Shown one piece after another: positions 38,175 through 40,533 of a DNA stretch of 64,000 nucleotides (position 1 is the first letter of the stretch; the number at the start of each line of letters is the position of its first letter). The notes beneath the pieces were generated by a model. The model was not told the origin of the DNA. It saw only the letters and a list, made by a program, of their open reading frames with translations, and made no database searches. The position numbers were made by a program, and so were the translations under genes. Origin of the DNA: Callorhinchus milii (taxonomy: Eukaryota); NCBI RefSeq assembly GCF_018977255.1, contig NW_024704743.1:682001-746000 (forward strand), given 5' to 3'.

Positions 38175-38297
38175 CCTCATCCCATCAAATCGTGACAAGG
38201 CCCTGAGTGGCCTCAAAGCTCTTAAGGTCCGTAGAGATTTAATGGCACCTAGTTCCGAATATCCCAGGGCATTAGCTGCCAGGCTGACTAAAGAGAC
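38175..38297 (-). CDS. SCN5A: DIII S3-S4 exon, copy B ([41 protein letters not shown])
   Basis: 123 nt, acceptor tttcttgcattag, donor AGG|GTAAGA. Missing from the ORF track; read manually. Confidence 0.9.
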
Positions 38298-39534
38298 CTA
38301 ATGCAAGAAACACAAACACGTAAACCTGAGGACTGTTTCCATTGGCAACAAACTTTTTTGTTCCCTTTACAGAAGAAAAAGGGAAGAGTTAAGGGAACCT
38401 GTTTTGAGAAGGAGCAATAAAAAGGTTATTATTTCAACCTGTTAAAGGTGGGGAAAGGAAAAAAAANTCTCATTAATTGACAAAGGCGACTACAAAGCCT
38501 TAACCAAAGTCCTACGCACATGTTGTCCGGTAAACCCTCAGTGTCTCCTTCTAACTCAGAAGTGACCTTTTCGAGGAAAACGCAATCCTAAACTTGATTG
38601 AGGAGGGAAACCGAGAACATTGATGTTCAGATCCCACCCCTCCAACACCCACCCACCCACCCCAAGGCAGCAAGACATTGGAGCACAGGTTCAGGAGCAA
38701 TTTCAGGACAGACACAGAACAAGCCTTTTATCACGTCGTCGAGACGTCGAAAAGCGCTCCACAGAATATACTGTAAGATGAGTTGACTGCGGGTTTTGTG
38801 GGTGGGCGAAACGCGGCAGCCAATTACGCGCAGCGGCGTCCCGCGAACAGCAGTGGATTAAGTGGCCAGGTTTTGTTTCTCAGAGAGTTTATTATGATTT
38901 CCCCGGAAATCAATCTGCCGATCGACTATCAATCGGGTTCCTACTTGCTGCTGGGTAACCAGAGGCGCGTGGAGTAAGGAAACTTGGCTGACGTTTCGCC
39001 CCCCACTGCCTGCCCGGGGAAACAAACCTGGTTCCTCTCGTTCGGGGGTTGCAAAGGGGCTAAAATTTCGGGACAAAGACACCAGAGGGGAAGTTAACAG
39101 TGGAACAGGGTTGCCAGCACGGGTGGTTGAGGCGAGACCCTTAGGGGTTCCTTTAAGCAGCAGCTCGATGATGGGCGGATGGTTGGACGGCTGTTCTGGA
39201 GATGAGACCAAATGGGCTGAGGGGCAAAAGGGACCCGAAGCCGACAGGTGGCAAACTCCACATTAAAGGGGAGGAGCGCCATTCCCTCTCCCTATAATTA
39301 ACCCGGCTACCAGTTGCCAAAGCAACCGTCTTCCTCTGATCCTCTCGCTCTCGCTCTCTCTCTCTCTCTTTCTCTCTCTCACCTGAGCTAACAGGGGGGG
39401 AGATTTCGCTGTTTACTGAGCGAGACCGTGTTTCCATCGCAGTGACCTCGGTACTGTCCTGAGGTACAGCCTCCTCGGTTACCGCTCGTCAGCTGTGGCC
39501 ACGGATCAGATAGCACAAAGCGGGAGTTGGTGCA

Positions 39535-39912
39535 AATAATAATAATAATAATAATAATCCTGGCGTTTGACCCGGCGCCTCATCATGCCTTCGAGACGTC
39601 TCGAAGCGCTTCGCAGGATAGGCTGTAAAGCGAATTGACTGAGCGTTTTGTGGAGCGGCTGGATTGCGCAAAGCAGTACCCAAACAGCTGTGGATTAAGT
39701 AACCAAATTAATATTTAAAAATATATATTTTTTTGGGGGGTGGGGGAGGGATTATTACCCCCGGGAAACCGATCCGCTAATCGACTAACAACCGGGATCC
39801 TACTGACTGCTGGTAAACAAGAGGGTGTGGATTAAGGAAACTTGCCCAACGTGTCGCCCTGCCCTGCCCGGGAATCAAACCCGGGTCCTCTCGCTTGCGA
39901 GGCGAGAGCTCA
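39535..39912 (-). mobile_element. tRNA-derived SINE between the duplicated S3-S4 exons
   Basis: Same family consensus. Confidence 0.85.
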
Positions 39913-40410
39913 CCTGCCCATTGAGTGAACCCATCGTGTGCTCCATCTTGGCCTGGCCTTCAGATGGCCTTTGAGATTCCCCCCCCCCCCCGCCACCCAC
40001 CCATCGCCTTTTCCATACACCACAACATGTGCATCAAACTGAGGTTAAGACTCCATGTGCCACACTTAAGACTATAAGCGCAGACAGTAATAACTTTGAT
40101 GGTGGGTGATTCTTAATGGGGAGATGGACAAGGTGGGGGTGGGGGGGGTTGGGGTGGAGGGTGATTGGGGGTGAATCCGAGTAATTCAACCTGGCTCCCC
40201 GTTTGCTCGTGTCCTGTTTTGTGAGTCCGCGAAGGCGAGGAGTCACATCTCCGTCAAGAAAGCCAACTTACAGTCAGAAGAGTGGGAAGATGGGGAGGTG
40301 GGTTAGCACATGAGTGTCAGCACATTTGTGGTCCTGCACTGCTTTAAGGAGTTCCTCAAGGCGATGGCCTTTCCACATGGTCACAGAGCTACACGTATAG
40401 GTGGCCTTAC

Positions 40411-40533
40411 CCTCATGCCTTCAAATCTGGACAAGGCTCGGAGTGGTCTCAGTGCCCTCAGAGTCCTGAGCGATTTCATAGCACTCAACTGGTCGTAACC
40501 CAGAGCCGTGGCTAACAGGCAAACCACGGAGAT
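40411..40533 (-). CDS. SCN5A: DIII S3-S4 exon, copy A ([41 protein letters not shown])
   Basis: 123 nt, acceptor gtgcag, donor AGG|GTAAGG. Intact S4 charge series. Confidence 0.88.

What the first reader, a model, noticed from the sequence alone, without database searches (positions are those of the whole stretch)
38175..40533. Two intact, diverged copies of the DIII S3-S4 voltage-sensor exon in a Nav1.5-type gene: probable mutually exclusive splicing switch
Seen: two 123-nt phase-0 exons, 2113 nt apart, both with canonical splice sites and no stops. They are identical at 31/41 residues. Nine of the 10 differences fall in S3 and the S3-S4 loop (GYDQLSAM vs GYSELGAI), and all S4 charges are kept. 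In the last 22 codons, 13 of the 21 same-residue codons differ synonymously, which points to an old duplication with both copies under purifying selection rather than an assembly artefact. Known: mammalian SCN5A has mutually exclusive exons only in DI S3-S4 (6a/6b). At this DIII site SCN8A has 18A plus a stop-containing 18N, and Drosophila para has coding exons k/l. Inference: this lineage makes two full-length channels with different DIII paddles, possibly the functional ancestral state of the 18N-type poison exon. The intron is too long for steric exclusion, so a regulatory mechanism would be needed.
Basis: partly seen in the sequence, partly recalled or inferred. Interest (0 to 1): 0.88.

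Follow-up and report, generated by a model that had tools for sequence, protein, structure and literature searches.

The report
Ancient spare voltage-sensor exon in Nav1.5
The elephant shark's heart-type sodium channel gene carries two intact versions of one voltage-sensor exon, and the same pair appears in gene models from lampreys, hagfish, sharks, fish, amphibians and reptiles, so it looks like an old either-or splice switch that the mammal and bird proteins seen here lack.

Summary
In detail: two open 123-nt phase-0 copies of the domain III S3-S4 exon (A upstream, B downstream), 2113 nt apart, 31/41 residues identical. The gene is the SCN5A-lineage channel of Callorhinchus milii. The pair is not lineage-specific. 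Database isoforms carry A-type and B-type copies in the SCN5A lineage of sharks, rays, ray-finned fish, lungfish, amphibians and reptiles, in frog and lungfish SCN2A-type genes, and in one lamprey/hagfish gene. In 15 of 17 isoform pairs compared, the proteins differ only inside this exon. The exon tree splits all A from all B copies (SH-aLRT 98, 41 columns), which points to one duplication before jawed and jawless vertebrates split. The 8 bat and 1 bird SCN5A records seen were B-only. No RNA could be laid, so use in this species is inferred. Exclusion looks leaky: 15 records carry both exons, 4 carry neither. A candidate 18N-type poison exon lies upstream of B in the SCN8A-like paralogue but shows no detectable similarity to A, so 'ancestor of 18N' rests on position only. 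Ten literature searches found no description; key older papers were not searchable.

The parts
44046..44219 (-). Constitutive upstream exon (DIII S2 to first half of S3), phase-0 donor at 44046
   Evidence: Translation and paralogue matches; matches P0157 residues about 1177-1234; GT donor
40411..40533 (-). Exon A: upstream copy of the DIII S3b-S4 exon, 41 codons, open; the divergent A type
   Evidence: 100% identical to C. milii database proteins; groups with lamprey, hagfish, lungfish, frog and reptile A-type copies
38298..40410 (-). 2113-nt intron between the copies, with interspersed repeats and microsatellites; no short-intron steric block
38175..38297 (-). Exon B: downstream copy, the canonical type (like SCN8A 18A and the single exon of mammalian channels)
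   Evidence: 39/41 and 38/41 residues identical to the single exons of two paralogues in this genome; B clade
38130..38134 (-). GCATG at +41 of the intron after exon B: possible Rbfox site (weak)
   Evidence: The SCN8A-like paralogue has TGCATG at +33 and GCATG at +54. None in 400 nt after exon A. One 5-mer within 60 nt arises by chance about 1 time in 20 (my estimate)
34181..34456 (-). Constitutive downstream exon (DIII S4-S5 linker, S5, turret), phase-0 acceptor at 34456; 3' end approximate
25297..59610 (-). Part of the host gene inside the window (DII S6 to stop). The gene continues past the window to its start at about G000:C2:785088. SCN5A lineage; equals RefSeq model XP_042188457.1 (P0157)
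   Evidence: Exon map; trees; record name and contig length

Best explanation
A and B are an ancient pair of duplicated, alternatively used exons. Each codes for the outer half of S3, the S3-S4 loop, S4 and the start of the S4-S5 linker of voltage sensor III. Splicing normally takes one of them, giving two full-length channels that differ in the outer face of that sensor. SHOWN: anatomy, open frames, conservation, gene lineage, A/B split of the exon tree. INFERRED from automated isoform records of other species: each exon is used alone. INFERRED from the tree: the duplication happened once, before cyclostomes and jawed vertebrates split and before the Nav gene duplications. A was then kept in the SCN5A lineage of non-mammals, in amphibian and lungfish SCN2A-type genes and in one cyclostome gene, and lost from most others. 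INFERRED by analogy with SCN8A 18N/18A (about 50% likely): B is switched on by Rbfox-type factors binding just downstream, and A is the default where those are low (embryo, other tissues). With a 2.1-kb intron and 123-nt exons, neither steric hindrance nor nonsense-mediated decay can enforce the choice, so some A+B and neither-exon RNA is expected and probably gives non-working channels. INFERRED by analogy with insect K/L and G1/G2: the two channels differ in gating or persistent current.
For: Both exons intact, S4 charges kept, 70% of same-residue codons diverged. A-only and B-only records of one gene in 18 species: 8 sharks and rays, lungfish, 3 lizards, 2 frogs (SCN2A type), 3 lampreys, hagfish. 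15 of 17 isoform pairs compared differ only inside the 41 residues; the other 2 also differ in domain I. In all 19 A+B models used the A type is upstream, and leave-one-gene-out scoring puts 19 of 19 upstream and 19 of 19 downstream copies on the right side. Exon tree: 34 B-type rows against 30 A-type rows, SH-aLRT 98. Gene trees without the exon: window gene in the SCN5A clade (100), apart from an SCN4A-like pair (98.8); A-bearing frog and lungfish SCN2A-type genes inside the SCN1/2/3/8/9 clade (100). Among 103 cluster records with a readable DIII, 84 have one exon (56 B, 28 A; 5 of the 28 belong to a second lamprey gene with only an A-like exon), 15 have both, 4 have neither. Insect exons at the same place change persistent current and gating (PMC4309913, passages). 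Rbfox drives 18A inclusion (PMC3809569 and PMC13011093, passages).
Against: No transcript of this species was seen (laid nothing). The one full-length C. milii model holds A+B in tandem, and the 5 partial UniRef models of its cluster stop after A. Isoform records are automated models whose read support I could not see. In Takifugu (9 named records) and Pelobates (3 readable records) only B and A+B appear, never A alone, and teleost A copies are the most diverged. The exon tree has 41 columns and SH-aLRT support only; AU tests against separate duplications could not be run. The full-length protein's best PDB match is SCN1A, not SCN5A. No conserved intron element passed the shuffle test after A or B (0 of 15 pairs at 5 or fewer of 500 shuffles). 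Exon B's synonymous similarity to two paralogues is not above flanking exons (Fisher p 0.49 each). Absence in mammals and birds rests on 9 SCN5A cluster representatives, not on genomes.
Confidence: 0.78

Rival explanations
1. A works mainly as an in-frame off-switch. It is spliced in together with B (or both are skipped), which doubles or removes the S3b-S4 piece and gives a non-working channel in cells that should not fire, the job 18N does with a stop codon.
For: A+B models in 15 of 103 readable records and neither-exon models in 4. The C. milii RefSeq model is A+B. Takifugu and Pelobates show B and A+B but no A-only record. Upstream copies are less conserved than downstream ones (mean pairwise identity 0.66 against 0.85).
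Against: An off-switch would not need to keep every S4 charge and the 41-codon length from lamprey to lizard. Lamprey A is 90% identical to the chimaera's. A-only records exist in 18 species that also have B-only records. Ab initio gene models join two adjacent in-frame exons by default (general knowledge), and the search ranking favoured double hits.
Confidence: 0.13
2. The pair is real and alternatively used but arose several times on its own (SCN5A lineage, amphibian and lungfish SCN2A, cyclostomes) or spread by gene conversion, as S3-S4 exons duplicate repeatedly in ion channels.
For: Convergent duplication is documented for this superfamily (PMC9741552 section 16, read). Insects have their own copies here (PMC4309913). 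A copies of frog SCN2A and cyclostomes score only 5 to 21 bits toward the A profile. AU tests were not obtained.
Against: A copies of three gene lineages share the same marks against B (Ile at 1, no Asn at 9, Gln at 15 and, except hagfish, Asp at 14), lie upstream wherever order is known, and fall on one side of a 98-support split.
Confidence: 0.07
3. Exon A is still intact in the chimaera but no longer used, or the pair is an assembly artefact.
For: No RNA evidence for this species was obtained. The same gene's second DI exon-5 copy has decayed to a 27-nt stump, so this gene can lose a switch.
Against: Chimaera A is the least changed A copy in the tree (branch length 0), with intact splice sites. 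The decayed DI copy shows what disuse looks like here. A and B differ at 40 of 123 nt.
Confidence: 0.02

Closest known systems
SCN8A exons 18N/18A (Nav1.6, domain III S3-S4)
   Same: Same position in the channel. Upstream alternative exon plus downstream canonical exon. B is 39/41 identical to the exon of the SCN8A-like paralogue in this genome. A GCATG follows B.
   Different: 18N holds a stop codon (PMC3809569, passage); A is a full 41-codon sensor exon. Different gene lineage. The candidate 78-nt N exon in the chimaera's SCN8A-like gene has no detectable similarity to A or B.
Drosophila para exons K/L and cockroach G1/G2/G3
   Same: Two coding 41-residue exons at DIII S3-S4, mutually exclusive, changing persistent current or gating (PMC4309913, passages).
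   Different: Insects. K and L differ at 16/41, A and B at 10/41. Common origin with the vertebrate pair was not tested; the literature treats such cases as convergent (PMC12772994, passage citing earlier work).
SCN exon 5a/5b (6a/6b in SCN5A), domain I S3-S4
   Same: Tandem duplicated S3-S4 exon older than the gene duplications, lost patchily by gene and lineage (PMC12772994, first of 7 parts and passages).
   Different: Domain I, 92 nt and frame-shifting, about 91% identical, short intron. The DIII pair is frame-neutral, 67% identical in DNA and 2.1 kb apart. This gene has lost the DI switch and kept the DIII one, the reverse of mammalian SCN5A.
SCN1A poison exon 20N
   Same: Alternative exon next to the DIII S3-S4 exon of a Nav gene.
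   Different: The paper places it in the loop between S4 and S5 of domain III (PMC7790302, figure legend passage), that is after the S3-S4 exon, so it is not in A's position. Frame-shifting, not coding.

Membership tests
Mutually exclusive tandem-duplicated exons | Neighbouring homologous exons of like length in the same reading frame | tested here: met
   123 nt each, phase 0, 31/41 residues
Mutually exclusive tandem-duplicated exons | Canonical splice sites and no stop in either copy | tested here: met
   AG/GTAAG on both
Mutually exclusive tandem-duplicated exons | Both copies conserved across distant species | tested here: met
   19 A+B models and further isoform pairs from hagfish to lizards
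Mutually exclusive tandem-duplicated exons | Each copy is spliced in alone | tested here: inconclusive
   A-only and B-only automated isoform records in 18 other species; no RNA laid for this species
Mutually exclusive tandem-duplicated exons | Co-inclusion and double skipping absent or rare | tested here: inconclusive
   15 A+B and 4 neither among 103 readable records; records are not abundances
SCN5A (Nav1.5) orthologues | Groups with tetrapod SCN5A, apart from SCN4A and SCN1/2/3/8/9 | tested here: met
   SH-aLRT 100 in trees of 33 and 28 proteins without the exon; SCN4A and SCN8A stand-ins were partial and unnamed
SCN5A (Nav1.5) orthologues | Best match among human channels is SCN5A | tested here: inconclusive
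   Last exon: SCN5A first by 4 bits. Full length: SCN1A first, SCN5A fifth
SCN5A (Nav1.5) orthologues | Shared gene neighbours | tested here: inconclusive
   1 of 10 downstream frames hit the DLEC1 Ig domain at E 1e-5, below the curated cutoff; DLEC1 lying near human SCN5A is recalled
SCN8A 18N/18A poison switch | Upstream alternative exon carries a premature stop | tested here: not met
   Exon A is open for 41 codons
SCN8A 18N/18A poison switch | (U)GCAUG Rbfox sites downstream of the canonical exon | tested here: inconclusive
   One GCATG at +41, no TGCATG in 400 nt
SCN8A 18N/18A poison switch | 18N-type exon is homologous in sequence to exon A | tested here: not met
   Candidate chimaera N exon against A: 989 of 1000 shuffles score as high; against B 582 of 1000. 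Decay could hide homology
SCN8A 18N/18A poison switch | Developmental and tissue switch between the exons | not testable with these tools
   No tissue-labelled RNA available
Insect para K/L exons | Common descent of the duplication | not tested
   No insect sequences were fetched

The most novel reading that the evidence does not exclude
The first vertebrate Nav1 gene already had two working DIII voltage-sensor exons. Exon A is the coding ancestor of the SCN8A 18N poison exon, so the mammalian on/off switch is a decayed tuning switch that still survives intact, with its Rbfox-type control, in the heart-type channel of most non-mammals and in amphibian SCN2A.
Probability: 0.4. Interest if true: 0.78.

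Novelty: new variant of a known kind. Interest (0 to 1): 0.62.

Why it matters
Vertebrate Nav channels are described as having coding either-or exons only in domain I, with a poison exon in domain III. A coding domain III pair conserved from hagfish to crocodiles would add a second tuning switch to the heart-type channel of fish, amphibians and reptiles, including laboratory models (Xenopus; carp-family fish). Cloned 'Nav1.5' from these animals may be only one of two forms. It gives a natural pair of voltage sensors for structure-function work: in reptiles A also changes the S4-S5 linker glycine that aligns with human G1319, a Brugada-syndrome position. It makes the origin of the clinically relevant 18N poison exon testable. 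It also flags annotation errors: models that join A+B predict a channel with a doubled S4.

Tried and rejected
RNA: the run search for 38150-40560 listed 12 runs and no holder on record as RNA ('no RNA holder listed'). The read-laying run laid nothing. Homology of the candidate 18N-like exon to A, B or the paralogue exons: not above shuffles in 4 of 4 tests. A look-alike between the intron before B and the intron after the N-like exon: z 1.2, 26 of 200 shuffles as high, rejected. One other intron pair in that call (C27 against C290) scored z 5.1; the alignment was not viewed and it was not followed up. Conserved intron elements after the exons: none in 15 pairs. Extra synonymous constraint on B judged against paralogues: not significant. 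Low GC at third positions (B 0.45, A 0.62, against 0.81 in 14 other exons) is suggestive only, since two early constitutive exons are at 0.47-0.48. Competing RNA structure: the 25 longest of 116 inverted repeats are microsatellites and interspersed repeats, not a docking/selector pair. SCN1A 20N as A's positional match: rejected from the paper's placement. Second coding copies in the five other Nav-like loci: none in the genome search or fetched stretches; the SCN8A-like intron is split over two contigs. AU tests of separate duplications were not obtained. A check of bat, crocodile and other clusters for hidden A isoforms could not be made. No fold was run: a model would not tell which exon is used.

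Full report
OBSERVATION. They share 31/41 residues and 83/123 nt; 9 of 10 differences lie in codons 1-19; 13 of 21 same-residue codons in the last 22 differ synonymously. The flanking exons end at 44046 and begin at 34456. All of this is direct sequence evidence.

HOST GENE. The genome holds six Nav-like last exons and seven DIII S3-S4-like Nav matches, two of them here. Exon A is 100% identical to database proteins named Callorhinchus milii, and RefSeq model XP_042188457.1 (P0157) maps exon by exon on this locus. With the exon removed, P0157 groups with shark, skate, teleost, lungfish, amphibian, reptile, bird and bat SCN5A-type proteins at SH-aLRT 100 in a 33-protein tree. It does so again in a 28-protein tree where a turtle protein and the chimaera C23 gene form a separate SCN4A-like pair (98.8). 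Against this, the best full-length PDB match is SCN1A, while the last exon prefers SCN5A by 4 bits. One of 10 neighbouring frames hit a DLEC1 domain below its cutoff. I take the gene as SCN5A-lineage.

THE PAIR IS OLD AND WIDESPREAD. A search with exon A (best 120 of 4684 hits listed, proteins up to 2000 residues) put at its top gene models that carry both copies in tandem: a ray, turtles, alligators, a snake, frogs, sturgeon, gar, an eel, carps and perch-like fish. This ranking favours double hits. A second search with a turtle A exon (best 120 of 5009) added lizards, crocodile, tailed frog, Xenopus and pufferfish. Cluster look-ups (16 clusters, 126 records listed) gave 56 B-only, 28 A-only, 15 A+B and 4 neither; 18 lacked the region and 5 ran into intron. 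Five of the 28 A-only records belong to a second lamprey gene with a single A-like exon. A-only and B-only records of one gene occur in 18 species: Amblyraja, Mobula hypostoma, Hemitrygon, Narcine, Stegostoma, Chiloscyllium punctatum, two Scyliorhinus, Protopterus, two Anolis, Hemicordylus, Xenopus tropicalis, Hyperolius, Petromyzon, Lethenteron reissneri, Lampetra fluviatilis and Eptatretus. Of 17 pairs compared, 15 differ only within the 41 residues. These are automated models; I could not see their read support.

ONE DUPLICATION. The Xenopus tropicalis and Hyperolius pairs, and a lungfish A-type record, belong to genes in the SCN1/2/3/8/9 clade (100), and the lamprey/hagfish gene lies outside both jawed-vertebrate clades. 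In a tree of 64 exon copies, one branch (SH-aLRT 98) separates 34 B-type rows from 30 A-type rows. B holds every downstream copy and the single exons of mammalian, bird and three chimaera paralogues. In all 19 tandem models A is upstream. The simplest reading is one duplication before the cyclostome split and before the gene duplications, with later losses of A. The alignment has only 41 columns and AU tests failed to run, so separate duplications are not formally rejected. The 8 bat and 1 bird SCN5A representatives are B-only. That suggests loss but is not a genome test, since A isoforms could hide inside clusters (could not be made).

LINK TO 18N. In the SCN8A-like paralogue a 78-nt AG/GT-flanked segment with a stop at codon 25 lies 445 nt upstream of the B-type exon (G000:C27:4400500-4400423). 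Its layout fits the 620-nt 18N-18A stretch mentioned in PMC3401437 (retracted; passages only). That it is 18N is my inference; no RNA or mammalian sequence was compared. It shows no similarity to A or B above shuffles. The link of A to 18N is therefore positional. SCN1A 20N is placed after S4 (PMC7790302, passages) and does not match A's position.

HOW IT PROBABLY WORKS. One exon is chosen per transcript, giving two channels whose sensor III differs on its outer face: the acidic residue moves from loop position 15 (B) to 14 (A), with 8 more changes in S3b and the loop. In other lineages A drifts further: added lysines in sharks and rays, an extra arginine before S4 in teleosts, and Gly-Met to Ser-Ile in the S4-S5 linker of reptiles. 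That glycine aligns with human Nav1.5 G1319 (exon = residues 1281-1321 of 8vyj_A), listed as Brugada variant G1319V (PMC5445024, table passage). The intron is too long for steric exclusion and both exons keep the frame, so decay of faulty RNA cannot police the choice; A+B and neither-exon records fit a leaky, factor-driven switch. By analogy with 18A (PMC3809569, PMC13011093; passages), Rbfox may turn on B: GCATG stands at +41 after B, TGCATG at +33 and GCATG at +54 after the SCN8A-like exon, and none within 400 nt after A or after the single exon of the SCN1-like paralogue. This is weak evidence. No conserved intron block or unique inverted repeat was found. A functional difference is inferred from insect K/L and G1/G2 at the same site (PMC4309913, passages).

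AGAINST. No transcript from this species. The C. milii model itself is A+B. Takifugu and Pelobates show no A-only record. Upstream copies are less conserved (0.66 against 0.85). B's synonymous similarity to paralogues is not above flanking exons.

LITERATURE. Ten full-text searches of open PubMed Central and bioRxiv papers (one search was for G1319V) listed no paper whose title or abstract start describes a coding DIII pair in vertebrates. Read: PMC12772994 (first of 7 parts and passages; domain I exon 5 only, 0 hits for 'exon 18'); PMC9741552 (section 16 and passages); passages only of PMC13011093, PMC8476164, PMC4494069, PMC3809569, PMC7790302, PMC3401437, PMC5445024, PMC4209135, PMC13125697, PMC6679542, PMC5740500 and PMC4309913. 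None of these passages mentions the pair; the 2026 review names only 18N/18A for domain III. No supplements were opened; those of PMC12772994, PMC4494069 and PMC8476164 may bear on this. Plummer 1997, Copley 2004 and Widmark 2011 appear only as citations, and Novak 2006, Zakon 2011 and Nishino and Okamura 2018 are recalled; none was read. The isoforms are present, unremarked, in RefSeq and UniRef models. The scan's earlier notes hold nothing on this exon.

VERDICT. A real, deeply conserved duplicated exon pair, most likely an either-or switch giving two full-length channels (0.78). The kind is known; a coding domain III pair across vertebrates appears undescribed in what could be searched. New variant of a known kind, interest 0.62.

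Noticed in passing
L024:6317-6291 (minus strand; G000:C2:772317): The second copy of this gene's domain I S3-S4 exon survives only as a 27-nt 5' stump behind an intact acceptor, 220 nt after the working copy, followed by repeat-like sequence. The DI switch has decayed where the DIII switch was kept.
   Followed up: partly
G000:C27:4400500-4400423 (L012, minus strand): Candidate 18N-type poison exon (78 nt, stop at codon 25) 445 nt upstream of the DIII S3-S4 exon of the SCN8A-like gene, with TGCATG at +33 after the coding exon. If real, the 18N switch reaches back to cartilaginous fish.
   Followed up: partly
G000:C290:20271-38225 (L018, L019, L030; exon in L006:1501-1623): A fifth, divergent Nav gene on an unplaced contig has a single A-like exon and groups with a second lamprey Nav gene in the gene tree (100, long branches) and exon tree (92). 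It may be a paralogue that kept only A.
   Followed up: partly
G000:C1:124538607-124574925 (L007, L020, L021, L035): A sixth, very divergent four-domain channel gene (46% identity in the last exon) with a shorter S3-S4 match; possibly a Nav2-like relict.
   Followed up: no
P0220, P0229, P0228, P0247 against P0264, P0284: Frog and lungfish SCN2A-type genes keep an intact A exon; Xenopus tropicalis offers a tractable model of the switch in a neuronal channel.
   Followed up: partly
P0157, domain I pore loop: The residue after the DI selectivity aspartate is Phe, not the Cys of mammalian Nav1.5 (recalled), which predicts a tetrodotoxin-sensitive channel.
   Followed up: no
window 38175-38297, codon 38: Exon B has Asp where nearly all other copies have Glu at the start of the S4-S5 linker; it seems specific to this species.
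   Followed up: no
L038:2166-2642 and L038:8894-9247 (+ strand; G000:C2:664-671 kb): Exons of a probable DLEC1 gene downstream of the channel gene (Pfam hits below cutoff).
   Followed up: partly
G000:C290:74788-80300 (L050, L051): Long open frames (362 and 1137 codons) that look like a retrotransposon gag-pol; observed only.
   Followed up: no
window, whole: TGCATG is rare in the window: 7 listed matches against 30 expected from shuffles. The tool lists each site on one strand only, so the comparison may be uneven.
   Followed up: no
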